A stretch of 64,000 nt of DNA from a virus. Below are positions 6,832 to 61,491 of the stretch, piece by piece. How positions within the stretch are numbered: position 1 is the first letter of the stretch; each line of letters starts with the position of its first letter. Where the stretch lies: the UHGV virus genome UHGV-1375844; one strand, given 5' to 3'. The position numbers and the translations under genes were made by a program. The notes below the pieces were generated by a model. The model saw only the letters and a program-made list of their open reading frames with translations, did no database searches and had not been told where the DNA came from.

Positions 6832-6850
6832 TAGGTAGTTACTTACTTAT
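6832..6850. promoter_or_regulatory. motif A palindrome copy
   Basis: TAGGTAGTTACTTACTTAT immediately upstream of ATG at 6817. Confidence 0.45.
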
Positions 6851-6936
6851 CAAAGTGAGCGAATCATAACGACTGGAGACAGCTTTTGGAAGTGGCAACT
6901 GAAGGGAATGTGTCTGGGAAGCTCGTTGTGAAAAGA

Positions 6937-6990
6937 CCTGCTTCCGTATAAATAATAATAAGTAACTTAGTATTTATATACAGAAGCAGG
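6937..6990. repeat. long inverted repeat H1 (18-20 bp arms)
   Basis: CCTGCTTCCGTATAAATA ... TATTTATATACAGAAGCAGG; loop carries a motif-A-like palindrome; near-identical copy at 40995..41049. Confidence 0.7.
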
Positions 6991-7006
6991 TTATAAAATC
7001 CTTTAT

Positions 7007-7417
7007 CTATTTTTCGATAACTCTTTGTTCAACTTCTTGCATCTGCTTTTCAGTGAGACTAGAAATGTGTTGATTCAGCAACAGATTGCGGTAGAAACTT
7101 TTTTGAGCCTCCGATAAATCCTGTCGCTTATCAATGTTTCTCAAAGCATTGCCGTAACTCTCGCTGATCGCATCACCATTGAATGCCTCAATAATGGTTT
7201 TCACATTCATAGCCAAGACGCCAAAGATAAAACAACCAGTGTTGTATACCCAGTCTACAACAAACCCTTTGGCGTACAAGAAAGGGGTTAAAATGTGAAG
7301 AATAACCCAAAGCAAAGCGCCAATTATTATTCCAAAAGCAGTTCTAAGCGGATAGCCCAAAAACAGAATATCTATTGCCCGATTTAAATTCCGACTAAAG
7401 AAATCATGATCTGGCAT
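7007..7417 (-). CDS. membrane protein (136 aa), AT-rich gene
   Basis: Hydrophobic helices (ILFLGYPLRTAFGIIIGALLWVILHILTPFLY); visibly AT-rich coding sequence. Confidence 0.5.
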   Translation of the reverse strand: MPDHDFFSRNLNRAIDILFLGYPLRTAFGIIIGALLWVILHILTPFLYAKGFVVDWVYNTGCFIFGVLAMNVKTIIEAFNGDAISESYGNALRNIDKRQDLSEAQKSFYRNLLLNQHISSLTEKQMQEVEQRVIEK

Positions 7418-8048
7418 CTAAAACCCCCTTTCCCAATTCTTCCCCTGGAATTTCTTCCGAGGCAGGGGTATTAAATATTTTACGCCTTCTGCCGCTTCCA
7501 CCATCATCGATCTTGTCGATATTATTTTCGATGAACTTTAAAAGCTGTATAGCCTCTGTACTATTGTTGCCGTAAAACCCTTTGGAAATACGATATGTCA
7601 GAACGCGCTCTTTCAGCTCAAGTAAAACAAAGACAACAATCCCGATAATAGTTACAATGGGGCTAAAGCCCCAAAAGTAACCCATTGAAGCACCAAGAAA
7701 AATCATCAGCACCGATAAAAACTTAACCTTAAGGAAGGTTTTTTTCTCATATAAAAGATAAAGCTCGGAAATAGTTTTCCTTTTCAAAAACTCTTGCTCT
7801 TTCTTTAAATTGTCCTCATGTTTTGCTTTTATCTCTTGTAATTTTATTCTGTACTCTTCTGATTTTATATAACTCAATGTATTACGATACAAGAAACTAC
7901 ATACCATACCTATCATTGAGCCAATAACAGAAATGACACCTTGGTTTGAAATTCCCAACAACCCCATAACCTTTCCAAAGATCACGGCGGCTATAATGGC
8001 TAACATTAGACCTACGAACCATCCGAAATGTCTATTCAGGAATTTCAT
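7404..8048 (-). CDS. membrane protein (214 aa), AT-rich gene
   Basis: N-terminal TM helices, lysine-rich coiled middle, second TM block; AT-rich; overlaps next gene by 14 nt. Confidence 0.5.
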   Translation of the reverse strand: MKFLNRHFGWFVGLMLAIIAAVIFGKVMGLLGISNQGVISVIGSMIGMVCSFLYRNTLSYIKSEEYRIKLQEIKAKHEDNLKKEQEFLKRKTISELYLLYEKKTFLKVKFLSVLMIFLGASMGYFWGFSPIVTIIGIVVFVLLELKERVLTYRISKGFYGNNSTEAIQLLKFIENNIDKIDDGGSGRRRKIFNTPASEEIPGEELGKGVLDARS

Positions 8049-8052
8049 TATA

Positions 8053-8412
8053 TTAGCCTTTCTTCATCAGCTCGCGCTTGATCTCGTCTGTGCGCATCGT
8101 GACGTCAGCAGCGGTGATCGCCTCGTTCAGTTTCACAATGTCCTCGATTTCCTGCGGCGACTTCTCTGCCAGATGGTAAATGGCTGCACGAATCACGTCA
8201 GAACGGGTGAACTTCTCAAAGCGAGGGATGAATTTCATCATCTCCAGCAGATCGAAGTATTCGTCCTCCAGCGACATGGTACGGCTCTTTATTTTCTCTT
8301 TCCCACGAGTCGGGCGGCCCTGTGGTCTGACTGGCTGGCGCAACGGCGTGCTGTTTTTGGCCGGAGCATCCGGTTCTTTGCGCTTGGCAAGGTCTCCCAT
8401 CTTCATGGACAT
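8053..8412 (-). CDS. ParG-like ribbon-helix-helix partition protein (putative centromere-binding)
   Basis: Basic disordered N-terminus then RHH-like segment (KSRTMSL / EDEYFDLLEMM / RSDVIRAAIYHLAE); immediately downstream of ParA-like gene. Confidence 0.5.
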   Translation of the reverse strand: MSMKMGDLAKRKEPDAPAKNSTPLRQPVRPQGRPTRGKEKIKSRTMSLEDEYFDLLEMMKFIPRFEKFTRSDVIRAAIYHLAEKSPQEIEDIVKLNEAITAADVTMRTDEIKRELMKKG

Positions 8413-9077
8413 TACTCTTCCTCCAGACTCAAGATATAATCAACAAACTGTTCAAACTCGGCTTCTGCCTTCTTGTCGCGTTCGGCGCCAGTCATTTCAA
8501 AGATAGAGCGACCAGCCTCTTCTGCATCATCGTAAACGTTACGGTTGTACAAATTGACCGGTGCAGCTTCGATACCAAACGTCTCAACGATTTCTTTGGC
8601 GGCCAGAATACGCGACACCTGGGAAGGTAGTGACGGGCACTGGTTGATAACGGCACGTATTTTCACCTTCTCGTTCACATTGCGTACATTGTCGATAATC
8701 GGGTCGATGTCGCGCAGCGATTTCAGGTCACGACGTTTAGGGCGCAGCGGTATGACGATAACATCAGCCATCAGCATAGCTTGTCGCTGGATTTCGGAGT
8801 CGAAGCCCCCTGCGTCTACAACCACGTAATCGAAGCGCCCCTGAAGCGATTTGAGATGCTTAACGACGTCTTCCTGAACGTAAGCGAAAGGAATGAGATC
8901 GAGATCTTCATTCTGTCGACGGTCTTCGCACCAGCTGGTAGTGGTGCGCTGGATGTCGATGTCGGTAACTTGGATTTTCTTTTTCTTTTTGACTTTCAGG
9001 CAAACCGCTATTTGCTGGGCAACGGTCGATTTACCCGGGCCACCCTTCGTGCCGCCAACCACAATGATCCTAGTCAT
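8412..9077 (-). CDS. ParA/ParF-family partition ATPase
   Basis: Deviant Walker A GGTKGGPGKST, 221 aa. Confidence 0.8.
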   Translation of the reverse strand: MTRIIVVGGTKGGPGKSTVAQQIAVCLKVKKKKKIQVTDIDIQRTTTSWCEDRRQNEDLDLIPFAYVQEDVVKHLKSLQGRFDYVVVDAGGFDSEIQRQAMLMADVIVIPLRPKRRDLKSLRDIDPIIDNVRNVNEKVKIRAVINQCPSLPSQVSRILAAKEIVETFGIEAAPVNLYNRNVYDDAEEAGRSIFEMTGAERDKKAEAEFEQFVDYILSLEEE

Positions 9078-9111
9078 TGAATAGTTCCCTTTGCGTGAAT
9101 TATTGTCGTAT

Positions 9112-9130
9112 GAAACAACTTGTTTTCTTA
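9112..9130. promoter_or_regulatory. motif B copy upstream of ParA-like gene
   Basis: GAAACAACTTGTTTTCTTA followed by TATGCGATAT. Confidence 0.45.
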
Positions 9131-9272
9131 TATGCGATATAGCCTAAATGCCTACGGCTGCGGTGTAAAGGTGAAATGGTAGGTATTATCGAGATAGAGA
9201 GGGTCTTGAGATTAAGAATGAGAAGAGGTAAACAACTTTTGGCGAGAAGGCGGCACATAGCCGCCAGACTGT

Positions 9273-14967: not shown

Positions 14968-17900
14968 TATCTGTTCTCCTTGATTTCACGGATTTCGTCA
15001 CGCAGCTCTTTCACCGCTTCGACCAGCAGTCCAATGACGCCGTTATAGTTCAGACGCAGACGCTCTTCCCCGGATTGGTCATTTTTATCAACCGTTACCA
15101 GTTCTGGCTGTACCTTCTGAACATCCTGAGCGATCAGGCCACCAGACTGCTCGTATCGATCATGTACCTGAATCTCATACAGAACCCCTTCAATCTGCCC
15201 CAGCTTGTCGAGTGCGCTCTCGATTTTGCGGATATTCCGCTTACTTCTACGGTCAGAACGGATATATACGTCGTTGAAGCTACCATTACCGCCACATACC
15301 CAAGTGCCATCGTTTTGCAGATATGCCTGGGCATCCGTACCGTTGGCCGTCCGTGAGTTGTTGATCATGTAAAAACCAAACTGGCTGTTACCCAGACCGC
15401 CGACGAAAAACTTACGATCGGCATGATCTTGTCTCAACAACGCTTGGGCCGAGCTGGTTGACACGGCATTCCGTCCAAAAATAACGTTCTGATCACGCAT
15501 GTTAATCCACGAGCCAGAGCCGCTATTGATGGCGAAGCGACCTGCGTAGACCCACGCACTTGAAGTAATGTCTCCTGACACAGAAAGGGGCTTATTGCTT
15601 TGCAACGTCCCGTTGACGAATCGGAACACATGAGCGCTATTGGCGTAGACATCCAGTACGCCATCCCCATTTTGCTTAAACCCGGTATCGTTATCTCCCA
15701 GAACAATAGAGTTCCCACCTAATCCATTCGTTACGCCTAAACCGAGGCTGCCGGCAATAGTTGCGCCACCAGCGATATCAAGGCCGTTAGCCATCGACGC
15801 ACGACCAGAAGTGTTGTTAATGGTCAGCGGTCGAAGGCCGTTCCATCCACCAAACTTGTCGCCTGATGCCGTTAAAAGGAAATAGGTGCTGCTGCCATCG
15901 TTTCGGATGAAGAAGCCAAAGTTACCGTAAGCAGCTCGCAGAGCATTGGCGCTTAATGAGGTGATCTCATTTCTTGCACGAACACCATATCCAGTGTTGA
16001 TAATGAGTTCCTCTTGCGCGTCAGTATTCCCTGTCGCCCAACGGATAGTTCCACCCTGAACCGTCTCGTGCCAGATTGTGTCGCTACTTCCCCCGCGGTA
16101 TTTGCGGAGATATTTCTTACCCCCTGTCGTGCCTCCACATAAAGCGGTGGCCATGTACGTGCCCTGGGCGCCGCCATCCTGATTAATGGTTCCGGTAACT
16201 GCTCCACCGCCTGTAGGGAGTGCCCCAACCTCAGCGGCGCTCGGTTTGTTAGCCGTGGTGTAGATCTGCGCCCAACCAGACCAATTGGCGTCAGTGGTAT
16301 CACGACGAGAGCGGATGTAAGCTGGGGCATGGCCACCGCTGGTGCCACTCCAGCCGAGTAACAACTCGCCTTCGCCTGCAGCAGACCCTCCTTTAAAATG
16401 AAGAACGTTGCCGTAAGTTGTTGGATAGCCGTTGTTGTAGGCTTCATACATCTGGATACCCGGCATGGCCCCCTGCGTACTTCCGGCCAGCGCGGTAACG
16501 CGACCGCGAGATACCAGAGTAGGGATGCTGATATTCGCGGTACCATCAAAAGCGACATTGTTGATCGATCTTGCCGTCTGCAATTTGCTCGCTGAGACCG
16601 CATTAGCACCTGAAGCAAGAGCGCCAATATCGGCAGGCGTTGGCTTATTACGGGTGTTATATAAGCGACGCCAGCCTGGTCCATAGCCGTCACCATTATT
16701 TACGTAAATAAACTCGGCGTTAGTTACCCCACCATGACCTGTCGTCGTTGGTGTGGTAATGCGGATCGTGTAGTTACCTGAGTTTCCATTGCTGAAAACT
16801 TCAATAACTGAACCAGAGAGATCAATCCTGCCGCATCCAGTGTCGTCAATGTAGTTATTGCTGGCGTAAGACCATGAGCAACGCGCGATCCAACATTTAT
16901 ACCCAAAAGCACCTTGTTCATTAAGCCAGGTAACAAACTGAGCTGTGGTAAAGGCCGCACCACTGCCACTATTCAGCCAACCACTAACTGCTGCCGCAGC
17001 ATTGATGTTTGCCGGGCTAATGTTAATGTCAGAAGAACCGTCGAAGTTTACACCTGCGATTTTACGTGCGGTTTGTAGCTTAGTTGCAGTCGCTGCGTTG
17101 CCTGTCGTGCTTTGATTTCCCTGGGTGTTAACACCAGGCAAGTTGATATCGGCGGAACCGTCAAAATTCACCCCACCAATTTTTCGGGGCGTCCTGAGCT
17201 TGCTGGCCGTACCCGCATTCCCTGATGTTGACTGGTTCCCCTCGGCATTCACACCCGGAAGATTGATGTCCTGGCTGCCATCGAACAGCACCCCACCAAT
17301 ACGACGTCCCGTCTGGAGTACCGTCGCAGTACTCGCATTGCCCACCAGTGAGCCTGTAATAGCACCATTGATGTCTGAAAGTACTCGATGATATACCGTT
17401 CCCTCTACGGCGCCTTCAGGCAACGAGTCAACCGATTCGATCACTTCCAGCGATTCAACCGCGGCGCCGGAGAATTGCAGGTTCACAATTAACTTTTGAG
17501 CGCCCGCGCCCACGCGAAGGTAGATGTCGTAATTTTCTTCGTCGGTATTAACGGTGGCCACGCTATTTACAGCGGAGTCCTGCGTTAAATAGGCAACAGC
17601 ATTGAGACCTTTGGGATCGCCCCCCGCTGTGCGAAGAACAATGTCAGCCATCGCAGCCTGGCCTGGGCTATCGGTATCATAGCCAGCGCCACCGATCACT
17701 TCGATGTAGACAGTGCTGGTCGCTTGCGGCATACGCGCACGCGAGACTTTTACCCACTTGGGCGTATCAGAGGTCAAGTCCAGTTCGGCGGACGTACCTT
17801 TCCATTTCACGCTGGCGATACTGGACTGCGCATTCTGCGCATATTCGTATGCCTTGTCCTCAGACGCTTTCGCTTTCGTCTGGGATGCTTTGGCCTCAGC

Positions 17901-19166
17901 TGCCGAAGTCGAGGCCTCGGACGCTTTTGCTGTCGCGAGTGTGGCCGACTCAGCGGCTTCTGTTGCCTTTGCTTCAATACCTGCCAGCGCGTCAGTTGCG
18001 GTGGTCGCAGATGCGGCTGCGCTTGCCTCAGACTTCTTCGCTTCGCCAGCACTTGATGCAGCTGCATCTTTGCTGGCCTCTGCCGCATCAGCATATTCGC
18101 CAGCTGTAGTGGCGCTCCCCGCCGCCGCGTCAGCGCTTAAACCGGCAGCCACTTTACTCGCGGCGGCGGCTGTTTCCGAGGCGGCAGCGTTGGTTTCAGA
18201 CACTTTAGCCGCGGCAGCGCTGGCGGCCGACCCGTCGGCGCTCTGCGCCGCGTTTGTTTCAGATGTTTTGGCTGCGTTCTGAGATGCAAGTGCGGCAGCT
18301 GCACTACCCGCTGCTGCGTTTTCCGATGCGGCGGCATTGCTCTCAGAAACTTCAGCAGCCGCAGCGGAATTAGATGCTGCGGTCGCAGAATCCGCAGCAG
18401 AGACAGCGCTGCCAGCAGCGTTAGTTTCTGAGGCTTTCGCGGCATTTTTGGACGCTGCGGCACTCGAAGCAGATGCCCCTGCTTCGGCGGCTTTCTCCGT
18501 TGCGGTGGCAGCTGAAGCTACAGCAGTCTCTTTATAGCTTTCTGCATTCGTTTCGGAGGTCTTTGCACCCTTAGCGGCTTCGCTGGCAACGCTTTCGGAT
18601 GCAGCAGCTGCGGCAGCACTTTTACTGGCCTCAGTCGCCTTTGTTCCGGCAGTGCTTGCGCTATTGGCAGCTGCTGCTGCGCTGGCGGCTGCCTGTTTAG
18701 CTTTGTCACCCGCGGCATCGATTGCATCCGTATTGTCTCTGTACCATTGCTGGTTGGCATTGTGCTCATTGACGATTTGGGTGAGCGATTTGACTGTCAC
18801 CTCAGTGCCGTCCTCGCGTTCGAGTGTCACTTCATCAATGGCAGTTAACCAGCTTCGCATTGTCTTCGAGTCGGCTGACATTCGAGTCATCAATGCCGTG
18901 AAGCGAGCACTGAACTGTGTCAGATCGCCTTCATAGGTAGTGATGATGCGGCATGGGACATCATTCTGGGTCTCACCCGAGTACTGCTCCATAAGTGTCA
19001 GGCGGGTGTCATTTAGCACACGCTTAATTTCGTACAGCTTGTTATCGGGGCCGATGACAATCATGCCCGGCAACACGCCATTGGCAGTGACGTTCCAAAA
19101 CGTGCCAGTGCCCTCAAGCGTGTCACTTCCCTGTGTAAATGTGATAGTACCTTCCCTGTACCACAT
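14967..19166 (-). CDS. lateral (L-shaped-type) tail fibre with C-terminal intramolecular chaperone domain
   Basis: 1399 aa; C-terminal DVYIRSDRRSKRNIRKIE matches the self-cleaving chaperone signature of tail fibres/endosialidases; Ala-rich region; repeated FDGS.DIN units. Confidence 0.75.
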   Translation of the reverse strand: MWYREGTITFTQGSDTLEGTGTFWNVTANGVLPGMIVIGPDNKLYEIKRVLNDTRLTLMEQYSGETQNDVPCRIITTYEGDLTQFSARFTALMTRMSADSKTMRSWLTAIDEVTLEREDGTEVTVKSLTQIVNEHNANQQWYRDNTDAIDAAGDKAKQAAASAAAAANSASTAGTKATEASKSAAAAAASESVASEAAKGAKTSETNAESYKETAVASAATATEKAAEAGASASSAAASKNAAKASETNAAGSAVSAADSATAASNSAAAAEVSESNAAASENAAAGSAAAALASQNAAKTSETNAAQSADGSAASAAAAKVSETNAAASETAAAASKVAAGLSADAAAGSATTAGEYADAAEASKDAAASSAGEAKKSEASAAASATTATDALAGIEAKATEAAESATLATAKASEASTSAAEAKASQTKAKASEDKAYEYAQNAQSSIASVKWKGTSAELDLTSDTPKWVKVSRARMPQATSTVYIEVIGGAGYDTDSPGQAAMADIVLRTAGGDPKGLNAVAYLTQDSAVNSVATVNTDEENYDIYLRVGAGAQKLIVNLQFSGAAVESLEVIESVDSLPEGAVEGTVYHRVLSDINGAITGSLVGNASTATVLQTGRRIGGVLFDGSQDINLPGVNAEGNQSTSGNAGTASKLRTPRKIGGVNFDGSADINLPGVNTQGNQSTTGNAATATKLQTARKIAGVNFDGSSDINISPANINAAAAVSGWLNSGSGAAFTTAQFVTWLNEQGAFGYKCWIARCSWSYASNNYIDDTGCGRIDLSGSVIEVFSNGNSGNYTIRITTPTTTGHGGVTNAEFIYVNNGDGYGPGWRRLYNTRNKPTPADIGALASGANAVSASKLQTARSINNVAFDGTANISIPTLVSRGRVTALAGSTQGAMPGIQMYEAYNNGYPTTYGNVLHFKGGSAAGEGELLLGWSGTSGGHAPAYIRSRRDTTDANWSGWAQIYTTANKPSAAEVGALPTGGGAVTGTINQDGGAQGTYMATALCGGTTGGKKYLRKYRGGSSDTIWHETVQGGTIRWATGNTDAQEELIINTGYGVRARNEITSLSANALRAAYGNFGFFIRNDGSSTYFLLTASGDKFGGWNGLRPLTINNTSGRASMANGLDIAGGATIAGSLGLGVTNGLGGNSIVLGDNDTGFKQNGDGVLDVYANSAHVFRFVNGTLQSNKPLSVSGDITSSAWVYAGRFAINSGSGSWINMRDQNVIFGRNAVSTSSAQALLRQDHADRKFFVGGLGNSQFGFYMINNSRTANGTDAQAYLQNDGTWVCGGNGSFNDVYIRSDRRSKRNIRKIESALDKLGQIEGVLYEIQVHDRYEQSGGLIAQDVQKVQPELVTVDKNDQSGEERLRLNYNGVIGLLVEAVKELRDEIREIKENR

Positions 19167-42250: not shown

Positions 42251-42501
42251 CTGCGCTCGATATTGGCATTAATGAAATCCAGGCGAAGAGATTCCATCGC
42301 TCCCACCATGACATACGGGCGCCCGCCGTTATGCCAGCAATCAAGAACACTGCCGTCATTGTTGATCATCAGCAGCGCCAGGCTCTGGCTTTTGCCTTCT
42401 CTGGCGTACTGAAGTGCTTCTTCCAGCAGGCGGATGACTTCAACGTTATTGTTGTCAGCCTCTTTCGATGGCTTCAGCTCTACGATCTTCAAATCAGGCA
42501 T
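42247..42501 (-). CDS. hypothetical protein (84 aa)
   Basis: Coupled by overlaps to both neighbours. Confidence 0.4.
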   Translation of the reverse strand: MPDLKIVELKPSKEADNNNVEVIRLLEEALQYAREGKSQSLALLMINNDGSVLDCWHNGGRPYVMVGAMESLRLDFINANIERR

Positions 42502-43132
42502 ATTCCACCTTCACGCGTTCTTTGTAGTGCTTGGTGATCTGCATATCCGGCCGCAGGGCGTTCTTCAGATCTTCGTGTGTCGTCGCCACCATTACCGTCG
42601 CGCCAACCTTACGAGCGGCACGCTGGAGGTTCGACGCAACAACCTGAGCGGTTACACGGTCGAGTACGGCACCAAATTCGTCGGCCGCCCACACTTTCGC
42701 GCCGGACTCGATTAGCTTGGCGATTTTGAGACGGTATTTCTGGCCGTCAGACATTTCGGATGGCTTGCGCACAAAGAGATAGGCGTCATTCAATCCGGCC
42801 ATAGACAACAGCCCCAGCGCTTCGCTGGTGGTTTTGCCCAGCTGGTCGATGACGTTAACCTCATTGTCGAAAGCAAAATCATCGATTGAGGCCACAGAAA
42901 GACCTTCATCCTTCATCTGGCGTTGCAGCTCGCGCAGCACAACGGATTTGCCTGAACCGGATTGTCCGGTGATGTACACAACATCACCCTGCTTCACTTC
43001 CAGCTCCAGATTGTCGTAAAGCGTCCACTCTTTTTCGTCCAGACCAAGACCGAACGATTCGGCAATTTCCAGCGTTCGCGTGGTTTTGTTCACGCGGGTC
43101 TGGAACGACACGTTGATGGTGTACTTACTCAT
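42494..43132 (-). CDS. ABC-type ATPase, nucleotide-binding domain only
   Basis: Walker A GQSGSGKS, signature-like MSDGQKYRL, Walker B VWAADEFG, H-loop ATTHED; 212 aa, no membrane domain. Confidence 0.65.
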   Translation of the reverse strand: MSKYTINVSFQTRVNKTTRTLEIAESFGLGLDEKEWTLYDNLELEVKQGDVVYITGQSGSGKSVVLRELQRQMKDEGLSVASIDDFAFDNEVNVIDQLGKTTSEALGLLSMAGLNDAYLFVRKPSEMSDGQKYRLKIAKLIESGAKVWAADEFGAVLDRVTAQVVASNLQRAARKVGATVMVATTHEDLKNALRPDMQITKHYKERVKVEYA

Positions 43133-43830
43133 GCAGCCAGCTCCCCGGAGGACACTTTCTCCGCATACGCCACGAAAGCGTTCACCCCGCGCTCTCCCGT
43201 GATTTCTTCCATGTGGGCGAGCAAATCCCCAACCACAATGGCAGAGCCAGCAGGAAGCGTTTTAAAGCCCAATACGTCGATGACACGGACTTCTTCAGCG
43301 GCCACTTCGCGACTGATCTCGGTGTGCTCTTCTTTCTGGCGTTCCGTCTCTTCGCCCAGATCGAGCACCAGAGAGCCGGTTTCCATCTCTTCGGTCATGC
43401 TGCCGACAAGCACATTCAGTTCACGCTCTTCAAAACCGAAGACCTCGACGTCGCCCAGCACCAGGGATTCCAGTTCCTGCTGCAATTTGATGGCGTCGTA
43501 ATCGATACTGGCAAGGCGGTTGTCTTCCAGACGCTTCGCCTTCACCTCTTCTTCATTCAGATCGTCGCGAACAATGACCGGCACACGCTCCAGACCAGCC
43601 AGAAGCGCCGCCTCGCGACGACCATGACCAGTAATGATGACGCCGTTCTTGTCGATCGTGATCGGCTGGTCAAAACCGCGCTTTTTGATGGCGGCAGCCA
43701 GATCGCGGATCTGCTGTTCATCATGTTTTTTGGCGTTCATCTCATACGGGATGAGTTCAGCCGGGTTTCGATAGACGATTTCAAAGTTCTTGGTCATTAC
43801 ATACGCTCCTTGTAGTAGTCGACCAGCCAC
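43129..43830 (-). CDS. ParB-like nuclease-domain protein
   Basis: ParB/Srx-like N-terminal region (ITGHGRREAALLAGLERVPVIV), acidic C-terminus. Confidence 0.55.
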   Translation of the reverse strand: MAGRLLQGAYVMTKNFEIVYRNPAELIPYEMNAKKHDEQQIRDLAAAIKKRGFDQPITIDKNGVIITGHGRREAALLAGLERVPVIVRDDLNEEEVKAKRLEDNRLASIDYDAIKLQQELESLVLGDVEVFGFEERELNVLVGSMTEEMETGSLVLDLGEETERQKEEHTEISREVAAEEVRVIDVLGFKTLPAGSAIVVGDLLAHMEEITGERGVNAFVAYAEKVSSGELAA

Positions 43831-44495
43831 ACCAGGGCTTCCCCGGCGTTCTCCATTTCGTTACCGGTGTTGATCCCCTGCTCTTTGATGATGGTTTTGA
43901 TGGTGTCGGCGACGCGATCTGACGCATCAAACGTCACTTTGAAGCGCATCGTCTGGTGTTCTGCGCCAACACGCTCCGTTTTCTCGCGGCGATCGTCGTC
44001 AGCTGGCTCATCATCGCCGCGGGAAAGCGCTTCCAGCGCTTCGAGATCAATGGCAGAGGCTTTGGCAAGGGTGGCCGCCATTTCATCGTCATAGGGGGCA
44101 ATATCGGAAAGCCGGTAGTCGATTTCAGACTGGATTTCTTCGATCAGTCGCTGCAAAGCGATCTGATCGTCTTCGCCGTAACGTTCGTTATCGACAAGTG
44201 ACATCTGCTTGGCCACCAGGTCGTTGATTTTGCCAACCGAGATGACAGGAACAGTCGAAATTCCCTGCTCTATCGCAGCCCGCCAGCGATGTTCGCCGCC
44301 GAGGATCTGGAAAGTGCCACCGTCCAGCTCACGGGCCAAAATTGGCTTAAAAAAGCCCAGCTTCTCGATAGAACCTTTCAGTTTTTCGAAGTTTTGCGCC
44401 CCCACCGAGTTGGTGTTCCAGGGATTCGGACACAGTTTCGCAACTTCAACCTGCAAAATCGTAATTTTCACATCCATTTTCTTGATACAATCCAT
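43797..44495 (-). CDS. ParB-like nuclease-domain protein
   Basis: Classic ParB box GGEHRWRAA; first gene of operon. Confidence 0.65.
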   Translation of the reverse strand: MDCIKKMDVKITILQVEVAKLCPNPWNTNSVGAQNFEKLKGSIEKLGFFKPILARELDGGTFQILGGEHRWRAAIEQGISTVPVISVGKINDLVAKQMSLVDNERYGEDDQIALQRLIEEIQSEIDYRLSDIAPYDDEMAATLAKASAIDLEALEALSRGDDEPADDDRREKTERVGAEHQTMRFKVTFDASDRVADTIKTIIKEQGINTGNEMENAGEALVWLVDYYKERM

Positions 44496-46889: not shown

Positions 46890-47417
46890 ATGACGAACAT
46901 AACTGACATCACCTACGGTATACCTGCAGAAGTCTGGCCGCGGGATTATTCTAACGTCGAGAAGGCACTCATGTTCTGGCGTAAATCCCTCATTCCTGTA
47001 AGGGTCACGATGGAGGATGGTCAGGTGTTCTGCATGTATGTGCAGGGTCTCATGTCATCCCGCAATAAGGTTGATCTTTGCTCTGCCCCGTTCGACAAAG
47101 AAAATCGTATAAGGCTCCCACTTGAGCGGATCAGCACGATTGAGTCGGGTGTGACAGAAAGTATTGGACACGACTTCAAGGGGCGAATCACGATTAACCC
47201 CGAATATGTTGATAATCGGCCATCTCGCCGGGACTTCTTCAAAATCTGTCGGCAGGCTCATGCGTCTCAGAAGTCTATAAGGGTGTACATGGCGGATGGC
47301 CGTGAAATTGAAGGTGTGTCATTAGGCGTTGACGCTTGCCAGGTCACGATCGGCATTGGTGAAGGTCGCAAGATGGTGGTCTTGTTCGATTGGGTCGAAA
47401 GGATTATACCGTTTTAA
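46890..47417 (+). CDS. hypothetical protein (175 aa)
   Basis: ORF directly after lipoprotein gene. Confidence 0.5.
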   Translation: MTNITDITYGIPAEVWPRDYSNVEKALMFWRKSLIPVRVTMEDGQVFCMYVQGLMSSRNKVDLCSAPFDKENRIRLPLERISTIESGVTESIGHDFKGRITINPEYVDNRPSRRDFFKICRQAHASQKSIRVYMADGREIEGVSLGVDACQVTIGIGEGRKMVVLFDWVERIIPF

Positions 47418-49816: not shown

Positions 49817-49990
49817 ACGCGTATCAGGCGTCCAAGCGCTCTATTCCGGCATCTGTTTGCCTGAAGGGAGTCAGAGGGTCGTTCGGTAGCCTGGCGGTAA
49901 GAGGTGGGTGTTTTGCCTGATGTGATGAGGTTGGTATATCTGGCGGGCAAGCGGTGCTATCTTGGCCGCAGGTAACTCAGGAGACTCAAG

Positions 49991-52750: not shown

Positions 52751-52979
52751 CGCAGGTTGACCGTAGGGGTGGGGAGGGACGTTACGGGAGATAAAATCAT
52801 GGCTTGAATAAATACGGGAAAAGTAGCGATCCCCCTCTTCCCCTTCCCACTTATACCTCCAGTTAAATCTCTGCGTTCCTCTCTCCTTTAATCGAATCTG
52901 TCTTCCCTCCGATAAGGCTCAATACGATGACTACCTCTGTACGTGAAATGGGTGGTTCGTACTCTCTGCCGGCATATGT

Positions 52980-53470
52980 CTTTTTGCGCTTCTTGAGGCT
53001 GTTCTTCTATGCGTTTTCTTCTGGGTTGTTTTCGTCTCTTTGGGTGTTCTTCTTCTCTGGGTATTGAGTAATGGCAGGTGTGCTTTCCTCTTCGTTTACT
53101 TGCTGAGAAGGAAGTGTGGGGAATGGCAGTAGGGCGCTTTAGTTGTTCTCTGCATATCAAGTAATAGCGTTCCCTGCTTTTCAGGACTTTGCGCTCTCTT
53201 CAGGGGTAATGGTGGGTAAGTAAGATTGCAACGGCTCCTGTTCTGGTCTGGGTTTGCCCGGGGTTGCATTCTGAGCGCTGTTCTCTGTGTTTTGGGTAAT
53301 GGCATGTAGAGGATTGCGTGCGCGAGCTGCGTCTCGGTTGCCTGGTGGCATTAGGTGGGTGGTCGGTAGCCTGGGGTCAAGAGGTGGGTCTATTCCATAG
53401 CCTGGTGGTAAGAGGTGGGTAGTTTCCGGGGGTTGTGGGCAATGGCGCCTCTGGGTTTCCCGCGGGTGGG
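52980..53470. repeat. degenerate tandem direct repeats in ORF-free region
   Basis: Recurring TTCTCTGGGT...GGTAATGGC units (period roughly 75-80 bp) and 3 copies of TAGCCTGG.GGT.AAGAGGTGGGT; a fourth copy of the latter lies at about 49871. Confidence 0.55.
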
Positions 53471-53510
53471 ATTAATTTGTTTTCTTGCTGTAGAAAACAA
53501 CTTGTTTAAA
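53471..53510. promoter_or_regulatory. motif B copies in both orientations
   Basis: ATTAATTTGTTTTCTTGC and GAAAACAACTTGTTTAAA. Confidence 0.4.
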
Positions 53511-53706
53511 TGGGCAATTTAACGCAATCAGAGCGCTTTTGAGCGTGTCTGTTTTTGGGTGGTGTGTTGAGTCGTTAGAGATGCTTTCGTCGCGAGGTGA
53601 TTGATTCTGGTGGGCAGGATAGCGGGTATAAGAGATGGCATGTGAAAACGTCAACTTTTTAGACTAAATCGGGAGAATGCATTGACATTTCTTTGATGTG
53701 TTATTT

Positions 53707-60678: not shown

Positions 60679-61491
60679 TTAATGAAGACGTGTGGTCTCC
60701 TCCATCTCGCGCTCAACATGCACACGACACGGTTCGTATTCGATACCGCTTACGCTAATTTTCCCGGCAGCGATCAGCTTCACAGCAGCGAAGCAGAGTC
60801 CTTTGAAGGTGTACTTGGCCTGATTGTGGCCATTGCCGGATACAACGTTTTTGCCATATCCGCGGTCGATAAAGATCTTCAGAAATTGACGGTTAGTTGT
60901 TGTGTACTTACGTTTAACGTACACATCGCCCAACGAATCCATTAAAGCCCCCAGAACTGCACCCGAGGTTCCGAGTATGCGTCCGGCTTCATTTAGCCCG
61001 TAAAGCTCATCAGCAGCCCCGCAGATTGTGTCCATGAGAATGGCTTTTGGTTTAGCGTGAGAGAGCGCAACGCCCAGAGCTTCGTTCTCTTTTTCAAGTC
61101 GTTCATTTTCTTCGACCTGGCGGAGCAAGTGGACGAGCGCTTCTTTATAGGTATGCGGGATAGCGGGAGTTACCCGATCGGCATACAGGGTCTCCAGTTC
61201 CTTCCATCGATCGACAAGTCGTGCGGTAAACTCAGGGGATAGCTGCGCCACAACAATGATACTGTCACGTTTGCCCTGTTCGTTTTCAAACAGGTAGATC
61301 GTCACGGGGCGCCCGGCCGTGGGCTTTTCCACCGTTGGTGGAGAAGCTATAACGCCCGATTTCGCCAGTCTTTCAATGGTGCGCTTTACACTGTCGTGCC
61401 GACTACCAACCAACTCGGCGATCTCCAGGCTGGTCATGGATGGTTTCGCGTGTATGCCGGTGGTGGGGGTGAGGGAAGCTATTTCAAACAT
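60679..61491 (-). CDS. Rha-family regulatory protein / antirepressor
   Basis: Trimmed to MFEIASLTP start; N-terminal Rha-like HTH (MTSLEIAELVGSRHDSVKRTIERL). Confidence 0.6.
   Translation of the reverse strand: MFEIASLTPTTGIHAKPSMTSLEIAELVGSRHDSVKRTIERLAKSGVIASPPTVEKPTAGRPVTIYLFENEQGKRDSIIVVAQLSPEFTARLVDRWKELETLYADRVTPAIPHTYKEALVHLLRQVEENERLEKENEALGVALSHAKPKAILMDTICGAADELYGLNEAGRILGTSGAVLGALMDSLGDVYVKRKYTTTNRQFLKIFIDRGYGKNVVSGNGHNQAKYTFKGLCFAAVKLIAAGKISVSGIEYEPCRVHVEREMEETTRLH

What the first reader, a model, noticed from the sequence alone, without database searches (positions are those of the whole stretch)
8053..9077. Plasmid-type partition pair (ParA-like ATPase plus ParG-like RHH protein) inside a phage genome
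The deviant Walker A GGTKGGPGKST followed by a small protein with disordered basic N-terminus and RHH-like C-terminus matches type Ib partition systems. Together with the iteron clusters and Rha antirepressor this suggests the phage can persist as a low-copy extrachromosomal prophage. No integrase is present in 64 kb.
Basis: partly seen in the sequence, partly recalled or inferred. Interest (0 to 1): 0.55.

Follow-up and report, generated by a model that had tools for sequence, protein, structure and literature searches.

The report
Partition gene pair of a phage-plasmid
The two genes are a plasmid-type DNA-segregation pair (a ParA ATPase plus its small partner protein) in an SSU5/pHCM2-type phage-plasmid, a well-known group of phages that live as plasmids, so the finding is correct but largely ordinary.

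Summary
Both ORFs exist as described on the minus strand. ParA is at 8412-9077 (221 aa, deviant Walker A GGTKGGPGKST). A 119-aa ORF at 8053-8412 follows it, joined by a TAATG stop/start overlap.

The whole window is 99.5% identical to a circular 106.6-kb Salmonella plasmid and about 81% identical to phage SSU5. It is therefore part of an SSU5/pHCM2-type phage-plasmid, a group already known to be maintained as plasmids. Among 5,426 complete E. coli genomes, the module is on a plasmid in 185 of 185 cases and never on a chromosome.

ParA's closest solved relative is ParF of TP228 (E 4e-13). The small protein belongs to a tiny, unannotated family (phrog_5111). All five distant members examined (27-39% identity) sit directly after a ParA of about 220 aa, so it is very probably the ParA adaptor. 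Its ribbon-helix-helix (RHH) fold is only weakly supported, by sub-threshold RHH_1 and aCcr1 hits. It is not a member of the ParG family.

No repeat-array centromere was found. The 108 bp upstream of parA are more conserved than the genes. They carry one copy of a 13-bp palindrome found at many promoters in this genome; pMT1 keeps that palindrome without this par pair. A tyrosine recombinase and a Rep_3 RepA lie outside the window.

The parts
8412..9077 (-). parA: 221-aa small ParA-type ATPase with no N-terminal HTH extension
   Evidence: PHROG 164 at 6e-52. Pfam AAA_31, MipZ, CbiA and VirC1. NCBIfam ParA_partition at 3e-34, aligned over residues 4-213 but below the cutoff. Best PDB hit is ParF of TP228, 4e-13, residues 7-199. 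K11, K16, D39/D41, D88 and RPKRRD 112-117 are invariant in 9 orthologues.
9024..9056 (-). Deviant Walker A motif GGTKGGPGKST (residues 8-18)
   Evidence: Read directly from the translation. G8, K11, G12, G13, G15, K16 and S17 are invariant in alignment A6.
8053..8412 (-). Small partner gene (119 aa): conserved N-terminal MGDLAK(R/K) motif, variable low-confidence linker, basic arm PQGRPTRGK, RHH-like core (about 41-82), two extra C-terminal helices
   Evidence: PHROG 5111, 'unknown function', 2e-79. No Pfam hit. Family alignments A1 and A4. Five of five distant members lie directly downstream of a ParA gene. RHH_1 hits are sub-threshold in 3 members. The aCcr1 (RHH) NCBIfam model gives E 1.4e-4 on residues 54-80. 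AF2 models have pLDDT 66-67.
8410..8414 (-). TAATG stop/start overlap between parA and the small gene, suggesting translational coupling
   Evidence: Sequence read. GGAGG lies 7 nt upstream of the ATG.
9078..9185 (-). Conserved 108-bp upstream control region (promoter/operator; best local candidate for the centromere)
   Evidence: It is 88-94% identical to SSU5, Klebsiella, E. fergusonii and pJN2-26 versions, against 78-85% for the parA CDS and 44-58% for the next 80 bp upstream. It contains a -35-like TAGGCA (9149-9154), a -10-like TATAAG (9127-9132), and tetramer boxes with 4-bp AT-rich spacers (TACC-ATTT-CACC-TTTA-CACC and AGGC-ATTT-AGGC-TATA), read by eye. The role of the boxes is inferred.
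9113..9125 (.). Exact copy of the genome-wide 13-bp palindrome AAACAAnTTGTTT, between the -10-like hexamer and the parA ribosome-binding site
   Evidence: It is invariant in all 5 relatives aligned and also present upstream of parA in a distant relative, L014.
52900..53560 (.). Conserved non-coding repeat region (G(G/A)GTAATGGC-type repeats and 29-bp CGGTAGCCTG..GAGGTGGGT repeats). It is only a speculative distal centromere candidate and could equally be a replication origin
   Evidence: It is conserved without annotated genes in 834 plasmid records. The motif resemblance to the parA upstream block (AATGGYAGG at 9175 and 53070) was found post hoc and is weak.

Best explanation
This is the plasmid-partition cassette of an SSU5/pHCM2-type phage-plasmid.

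ParA is a small Walker-type ATPase of the ParF/type Ib kind. By analogy with other ParA proteins, it binds the nucleoid as an ATP dimer (inferred from the family). The 119-aa protein that is translationally coupled to it is its adaptor. Its RHH-like core is proposed to dimerise and bind specific DNA on the element. Its conserved N-terminal G-D-L-x-K-(R/K) peptide, on a flexible tail, is proposed to insert into the ParA dimer and stimulate ATP hydrolysis, as the ParG tail does with ParF. Repeated cycles would then move sister copies of the ~106-kb low-copy prophage apart before cell division.

What is shown:
- the identity of ParA;
- the conserved ParA + small-gene pairing;
- the plasmid state of the element family.

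What is inferred:
- DNA binding by the small protein and its RHH fold;
- ATPase stimulation by its N-terminus;
- the location of the centromere.

The best local centromere candidate is the unusually conserved ~55 bp upstream of the promoter. Transcription of the operon also appears to be tied into a genome-wide palindromic operator that some other regulator recognises.
For: ParA:
- PHROG 164 ParA-like, E 6e-52.
- Best solved relative is ParF of TP228, E 4e-13.
- NCBIfam ParA_partition aligns over the full length, E 3e-34.
- The Walker A lysines and Walker B aspartate are invariant.

Pairing of the two genes:
- TAATG overlap.
- The two genes stay together in SSU5, Klebsiella, E. fergusonii and pJN2-26 while both flanks change.
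- Five of five distant family members (27-39% identity) lie directly downstream of a 212-229-aa ParA.
- Both genes are absent together from pMT1, which uses a P1-type ParAB instead.

Adaptor features:
- A low-confidence N-terminus with conserved L8 and K10 and a largely conserved Gly at position 6, comparable to ParG's Gly16/Arg19 tail (PMC5393062, PMC7308502).
- Sub-threshold RHH_1 hits in a consistent register, and an aCcr1 RHH-family hit at E 1.4e-4 (aCcr1 is an RHH protein, PMC9976878).

Plasmid state:
- The window is 99.48% identical to a circular plasmid that carries a Rep_3 RepA.
- 705 plasmid records hold the locus.
- 185 of 185 E. coli occurrences are on plasmids.
- SSU5 is an accepted phage-plasmid (PMC7969092).
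Against: - The window protein has no Pfam hit at all, including no hit to ParG or RHH models.
- PDB profile searches found no RHH protein.
- hhalign against recalled RHH sequences was no better than against negative controls.
- No repeat array of the parH kind is detectable next to the operon.
- The only strong motif upstream is a palindrome shared with about 20 other sites, and the small protein probably does not bind it.
- Two ParB_N-domain proteins elsewhere in the window are alternative partners in principle.
- No functional data exist for this cassette in the literature searched.
Confidence: 0.8

Rival explanations
1. ParA works with the two ParB_N-domain proteins encoded 35 kb away (43129-44495). 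On this reading the adjacent small protein is only a transcriptional regulator of the operon, or is unrelated to partition.
For: Two tandem ParB_N-domain genes next to an ABC-type ATPase are present. A screening study uses an SSU5 'parB' as a marker gene (10.1101/2025.09.12.675607). Small chromosomal ParAs do pair with ParB_N proteins (general knowledge).
Against: The ParB_N genes and the ABC ATPase are kept in pMT1, which lacks this ParA and has its own P1-type ParAB. They therefore do not depend on this ParA. They lie beside the packaging genes, 35 kb from parA. The small gene, in contrast, is overlapped with parA and co-inherited with it in every context examined.
Confidence: 0.07
2. The small protein is a global regulator and centromere-binding protein that recognises the dispersed 13-bp palindrome AAACAAnTTGTTT. 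This would resemble KorB of RK2, omega of pSM19035, or SopB at the scattered N15 centromeres. The roughly 20 palindromes would then jointly serve as operators and centromeres.
For: An exact palindrome sits upstream of parA and is invariant in relatives. AAACAA half-sites are the only motif shared by the parA upstream regions of distant loci. Eleven exact palindromes and about ten near-exact ones occur in 64 kb; a related 15-mer has 23 matches against 2.4 expected by chance. The precedents of dispersed sites in RK2 and N15 rest on my own knowledge.
Against: pMT1 encodes neither this ParA nor the small protein. It nevertheless keeps the palindrome at all 6 homologous sites, although the flanking DNA is only 76-88% identical. 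That implies selection by another binding protein. The sites are locked to promoters, 13 nt after a GATAAT hexamer and 9-36 nt before start codons, which is typical of a repressor operator. A FljA-like regulator shared with pMT1 is an alternative binder.
Confidence: 0.07
3. The ParA-like ATPase is not a partition protein. It would instead be a positioning or accessory ATPase of the MipZ/VirC1/MinD kind, for example one that acts on host division or on phage DNA processing during lytic growth.
For: Pfam MipZ and VirC1 models score almost as well as the ParA models. RefSeq names some orthologues 'division plane positioning ATPase MipZ'. The operon carries the same operator as the helicase gene and many early genes.
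Against: The best full-length matches are partition ATPases, while the MipZ alignment covers only residues 3-132. The gene order and the coupled small basic partner are typical of plasmid par cassettes. The module is lost exactly where another par system replaces it, in pMT1.
Confidence: 0.04
4. The small ORF is a toxin or antitoxin. It is annotated 'RelE/ParE putative toxin' in phage Cyrano, and on this reading the pair would act as an addiction module.
For: Only the annotation of one phage record.
Against: No RelE/ParE or any other toxin or antitoxin family is hit, even at E up to 10. The upstream gene is a ParA ATPase, not an antitoxin.
Confidence: 0.01

Closest known systems
parFGH of plasmid TP228 (type Ib partition system: ParF ATPase, ParG RHH adaptor, parH centromere)
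   Same: Both have a small ParA without an N-terminal DNA-binding domain, and ParF is the closest solved relative (E 4e-13). In both, a short downstream partner has a flexible N-terminal tail carrying a Gly followed by a basic residue, then a DNA-binding core with an RHH-like pattern. In both, the control region lies directly upstream of the operon (PMC3130281, PMC7308502).
   Different: The partner here is 119 aa (ParG is 76 aa by my recollection), with about 35 extra C-terminal residues modelled as two helices. It shows no detectable sequence relationship to ParG (no Pfam ParG hit). There is no array of 12-20 tetramer boxes, only about 5 loosely box-like tetramers (and reading). The upstream region also carries an operator shared with many other promoters of the element.
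Phage SSU5 / plasmid pHCM2 group of phage-plasmids (SSU5_033 'ParA-like partition protein' and SSU5_034 'hypothetical protein')
   Same: The genes are orthologous and in the same order. This window belongs to that group, which is known to be maintained as plasmids (PMC7969092).
   Different: Nothing essential differs. The local differences are about 81% nucleotide identity and a different annotated start for the small gene. The literature searched names the ParA but does not describe the partner.
P1 parABS, pMT1 ParAB and N15 sopAB (type Ia partition systems of other plasmid prophages)
   Same: The biological role is the same: active segregation of a low-copy plasmid prophage by a ParA-type ATPase.
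   Different: Those systems use a large ParA (about 400 aa) with a regulatory N-terminal domain and an HTH/ParB_N-type ParB. pMT1, a relative of this element, carries such a system in place of this pair.

Membership tests
ParA/MinD-type deviant Walker A ATPases, partition subgroup (type Ib, ParF-like) | Deviant Walker A KGGxxK[ST] with the signature lysine, plus Walker A' and Walker B aspartates | tested here: met
   TKGGPGKST at residues 10-18. K11, K16, D39/D41 and D88 are invariant in 9 orthologues.
ParA/MinD-type deviant Walker A ATPases, partition subgroup (type Ib, ParF-like) | Small size (about 200-250 aa) with no N-terminal HTH/regulatory domain | tested here: met
   The protein is 221 aa. 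The alignment to ParF starts at residue 7 of both proteins, and ParA_partition model positions 1-202 of 203 are covered.
ParA/MinD-type deviant Walker A ATPases, partition subgroup (type Ib, ParF-like) | Score above the curated cutoff of the NCBIfam ParA_partition equivalog (NF041546) | tested here: not met
   118.2 bits against a cutoff of 180. It is a relative of that family, not a member of that equivalog.
Type Ib partition cassette | Small centromere-binding protein encoded immediately downstream of parA and co-inherited with it | tested here: met
   TAATG overlap. The pair is conserved with changing flanks. Five of five distant homologues follow a ParA gene.
Type Ib partition cassette | The partner has a dimeric ribbon-helix-helix DNA-binding fold | tested here: inconclusive
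Type Ib partition cassette | Centromere made of an array of short repeats next to the operon | tested here: inconclusive
   No repeat family was found in 9078-9272. A strongly conserved 108-bp block with a few box-like tetramers is present.
Type Ib partition cassette | The cassette stabilises an unstable low-copy replicon | not testable with these tools
   This needs a plasmid-stability assay.
ParG family (Pfam PF09274) | Sequence match to the ParG profile | tested here: not met
   No ParG hit at E up to 10 for any of 15 + 14 family members. hhalign against a recalled ParG sequence aligned the right register (KIKSRTMSLEDEYF with KIKRVNVNFDEEKH) but without significance.
SSU5/pHCM2-type phage-plasmids | Genome-wide similarity to SSU5-group elements, phage structural genes together with a plasmid replicon, and an extrachromosomal state | tested here: met
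   The window is 99.48% identical to circular plasmid NZ_CP030187.1, which carries tail, capsid and terminase genes plus Rep_3 RepA. Synteny with SSU5. All 185 E. coli occurrences are on plasmids.

The most novel reading that the evidence does not exclude
The small protein founds an unrecognised family of ParA adaptors confined to SSU5-like phage-plasmids. It would combine an N-terminal ParA-activating peptide, an RHH core and a two-helix C-terminal extension. Its real centromere would not be next to the operon but in the conserved 600-bp non-coding repeat region 44 kb away, comparable to the scattered centromeres of N15. The operon itself would be subordinated to a genome-wide 13-bp palindromic operator regulon run by a different regulator, possibly the FljA-like protein.
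Probability: 0.15. Interest if true: 0.5.

Novelty: new member of a known kind. Interest (0 to 1): 0.22.

Why it matters
SSU5/pHCM2-type phage-plasmids are common in Salmonella, E. coli, Klebsiella and Enterobacter. The locus is present in 705 plasmid records and in 185 of 5,426 complete E. coli genomes. Phage-plasmids in general are reported to carry antibiotic-resistance genes often (PMC9600943).

Their stable inheritance depends on this kind of cassette. The ParA is routinely annotated, but its partner is labelled 'hypothetical', 'unknown function', or even 'RelE/ParE toxin'. Assigning the partner and narrowing down the control region would give a concrete target for curing or stability experiments, and would correct those annotations.

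It would not change how partition or phage-plasmids are understood.

Tried and rejected
**Fold and family of the small protein**
- Pfam, PHROG and NCBIfam scans of the window protein gave no curated family. The only hits were phrog_5111 (unknown function) and a sub-threshold aCcr1 match.
- PDB sequence and profile searches with the protein and with alignments A1 and A4 gave only chance hits.
- A family consensus sequence scanned against Pfam gave only RHH_1 at E 0.033 over 10 residues.
- The exhaustive representative search found only 20 family representatives and no bridge to a named family.

**Centromere and RNA searches**
- Repeat and tandem-repeat searches around the operon found no array.
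- K-mer sharing among the parA upstream regions of six loci recovered only the AAACAA half-site of the global palindrome.
- A post hoc motif link between the parA upstream block and the 53-kb repeats is weak.
- The Rfam scan of the window found nothing.

**Ideas rejected**
- The small protein binds the dispersed palindrome: made unlikely by pMT1.
- The pair is a toxin-antitoxin module: no supporting hits.

**Not retrievable**
- A 2026 preprint on an SSU5-related phage-plasmid could not be opened.

Full report
**1. Observation**

On the minus strand, ORF 8412..9077 encodes a 221-aa protein that begins MTRIIVVGGTKGGPGKST. ORF 8053..8412 encodes a 119-aa protein. The second ATG overlaps the parA stop codon (TAATG at 8410-8414), and a GGAGG lies 7 nt upstream, which suggests translational coupling. 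RefSeq starts the orthologue at Met3, so the exact start is uncertain.

The first protein matches:
- PHROG 164 'ParA-like partition protein' (E 6e-52);
- Pfam AAA_31, MipZ, CbiA and VirC1;
- the NCBIfam ParA_partition model over its full length (E 3e-34, 118 bits; below the 180-bit cutoff).

Its closest solved relative is ParF of plasmid TP228 (E 4e-13, residues 7-199).

**2. What the window is**

The par region is 99.9% identical to the circular, non-mobilizable 106,569-bp Salmonella enterica plasmid pSA20094620.2. The whole 64-kb window aligns with it end to end at 99.48% identity, at plasmid positions 25004-89006. The locus is about 81% identical to phage SSU5 and has the same gene order; SSU5_033 is annotated 'ParA-like partition protein' and SSU5_034 'hypothetical protein'. 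SSU5 and pHCM2 define a recognised supergroup of phage-plasmids (PMC7969092).

The part of the plasmid outside the window carries a Rep_3-family RepA (typed IncFIB) and a tyrosine recombinase annotated 'site-specific integrase' at 17479-18585, about 6.4 kb beyond the window's left end. The window itself holds a Rha-domain gene (60679-61491) and no annotated integrase.

Among 5,426 complete E. coli genomes, the par module occurs once in each of 185 genomes. All 185 copies are on plasmids and none is on a chromosome. So the element family is extrachromosomal despite encoding a recombinase. Whether that recombinase resolves multimers, as Cre does in P1, is my inference and was not tested.

**3. 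The small protein as ParA's partner**

The family is tiny. The word-indexed search found 24 clusters. An exhaustive HMM search of 1.84 billion representatives found 20. The window protein has no Pfam domain.

The evidence that it is ParA's partner comes from gene context:
- The pair stays together while both flanks change in SSU5, a Klebsiella plasmid, an E. fergusonii plasmid and phage pJN2-26.
- All five distant members examined (27-39% identity) lie immediately downstream of a 212-229-aa ParA-like gene.
- pMT1 of Yersinia pestis, a relative that uses a P1-type ParAB, lacks both genes.

The family alignment shows these parts:
- a conserved N-terminal motif M-G-D-L-A-K-(R/K), with L8 invariant and K10 at 90% or more;
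- a variable linker;
- a basic arm, PQGRPTRGK;
- an invariant block, I-K-S-R-T-M-S-x-E-D-E;
- a second conserved block, (T/S)-R-S-D-V-I-R-A-A.

The AF2 monomer models (pLDDT 66-67) leave residues 1-25 at low confidence. They give an extended segment, then helices 48-61 and 70-82, and two further helices at 86-97 and 101-118.

This pattern fits strand - helix - helix of an RHH domain, but statistical support is weak. RHH_1 gives E 0.005-0.11 in three members, in a consistent register and below the cutoff. The NCBIfam aCcr1 model gives E 1.4e-4 on residues 54-80 of the window protein; aCcr1 is an RHH family (PMC9976878). All other tests were negative or uninformative, and a dimer prediction was not possible.

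The protein does not match the ParG family. Its architecture resembles ParG in having a flexible N-terminal tail with a Gly and a nearby basic residue, like Gly16/Arg19 of ParG (PMC5393062; PMC7308502), followed by an RHH-like core. It carries a C-terminal extension that ParG lacks.

**4. Control region and centromere**

No repeat array lies next to the operon. However, the 108 bp upstream of parA are 88-94% identical among relatives whose parA coding sequence is only 78-85% identical, and conservation falls to 44-58% just beyond that block.

By eye, the block contains:
- a -35-like TAGGCA and a -10-like TATAAG, 16 nt apart;
- a few tetramers separated by 4-bp AT-rich spacers (TACC-ATTT-CACC-TTTA-CACC and AGGC-ATTT-AGGC-TATA). 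These are reminiscent of, but far fewer than, the ACTC boxes of the TP228 OF/parH sites (PMC3130281).

I regard this block as the best local candidate for the operator and centromere. That is an inference.

**5. A genome-wide palindrome**

The block also holds an exact copy of the 13-bp palindrome AAACAAnTTGTTT (9113-9125). The window contains 11 exact copies and about 10 near-exact ones. A related 15-mer has 23 matches against 2.4 expected by chance. The copies sit 13 nt downstream of a GATAAT-like hexamer and 9-36 nt upstream of start codons. These include the DnaB-like helicase gene and many small genes between 49 and 62 kb. This looks like the operator of a global regulator.

pMT1 lacks the ParA/small-protein pair. 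It keeps the palindrome at all six homologous sites, although the flanking DNA is only 76-88% identical. The binder is therefore most probably another protein. One candidate shared with pMT1 is a FljA-like regulator (Pfam Flag1_repress, E 3e-89; window 46890-47417). The par operon thus appears to be wired into the element's global regulatory circuit, which is unusual for a type Ib cassette but remains unexplained.

**6. Other candidates considered**

Two ParB_N-domain genes and an ABC-type ATPase (42494-44495) are present. They are retained in pMT1 and lie beside the packaging genes, so they are unlikely to be partners of this ParA.

The 'iteron clusters' correspond to a non-coding region at about 52.9-53.6 kb with two repeat families. 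It is conserved in 834 plasmid records with almost no annotated gene, and the repeats are conserved across divergent versions. Its function (replication origin, centromere or other) is open. A motif resemblance to the parA upstream block was found post hoc and is weak.

**7. Verdict**

The element is a member of a well-known phage-plasmid group, and its ParA is already annotated as such.

The modest additions here are:
- good contextual evidence that the unannotated small protein is the ParA adaptor;
- the finding that its RHH nature is plausible but unproven;
- the absence of a classical adjacent centromere array;
- the operator link to a genome-wide regulon;
- the presence of a recombinase and RepA outside the window.

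Interest is low.

Noticed in passing
window 6051, 9113, 40922, 40947, 49782, 50509, 50560, 51463, 52056, 53495, 54642, 54693, 55071, 56741, 59875, 60592, 62143 (13-bp sites): A dispersed palindrome AAACAAnTTGTTT (extended form AGAAAACAAnTTGTTT in gene orientation) sits 13 nt after a GATAAT-like hexamer and 9-36 nt before start codons of the helicase gene, parA and many small genes. There are 11 exact copies in 64 kb. It looks like the operator set of a global regulator, and pMT1 conserves it at all homologous sites despite 76-88% flank identity.
   Followed up: partly
window 46890-47417 (+): A 175-aa protein matches Pfam Flag1_repress (FljA, repressor of phase-1 flagellin) at E 3e-89. An orthologue is annotated in pMT1. 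It is a candidate binder of the dispersed palindrome, or a modulator of host flagellin. Neither possibility was tested.
   Followed up: no
window 42494-44495 (-): An operon of two tandem ParB_N-domain proteins (222 and 232 aa) and an ABC-type ATPase (212 aa) lies next to the packaging genes. It is also present in pMT1. It is not adjacent to parA, and its role is unknown.
   Followed up: partly
window 52900-53560: A G/T-rich non-coding region carries two conserved repeat families: G(G/A)GTAATGGC-type repeats, and 29-bp CGGTAGCCTG...GAGGTGGGT repeats in three copies. It ends in a palindrome copy. It is conserved in 834 plasmid records with almost no annotated gene. It could be an origin, a centromere or another cis-acting site. 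Another copy of the 29-bp unit lies at 49885-49909.
   Followed up: partly
L003 (NZ_CP030187.1) 1-1056 and 17107-18585, outside the window: The near-identical complete plasmid carries a Rep_3-family RepA (typed IncFIB) and a tyrosine recombinase ('site-specific integrase') beside an XRE-type regulator. pMT1 has the same recombinase neighbourhood. The element is nevertheless always found as a plasmid, so the recombinase may resolve multimers.
   Followed up: partly
window 8972-8996 (ParA residues 28-36): ParA carries a lysine run, KVKKKKKIQ, encoded by a TTTTCT-type tandem repeat. The run is conserved in the close relatives and partly conserved in distant ones. It could be a DNA-contact patch or a slippage-prone tract.
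   Followed up: no
window 6836-6991: The intergenic region downstream of the two membrane-protein genes has nested inverted repeats, for example ACCTGCTTCCGTATA / TATACAGAAGCAGGT (15 nt, 93% complementary, 26 nt apart). It may be a terminator or a protein-binding site.
   Followed up: no
database records H8 (OV696614.1) and H68-H80 (RefSeq E. coli plasmids): Annotations of the orthologues are inconsistent. The small gene is called 'RelE/ParE putative toxin' in phage Cyrano, and parA is called 'division plane positioning ATPase MipZ' in several RefSeq plasmids. Neither name is supported by the family scans done here.
   Followed up: partly
window 7007-8048 (-): Two predicted membrane proteins (136 and 214 aa; phrog_17322 and phrog_22270, unknown function) directly follow the par pair in this element, in SSU5 and in pJN2-26. 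In Klebsiella and E. fergusonii relatives a convergent 1059-nt gene replaces them. This is a variable cargo slot next to the par module.
   Followed up: no
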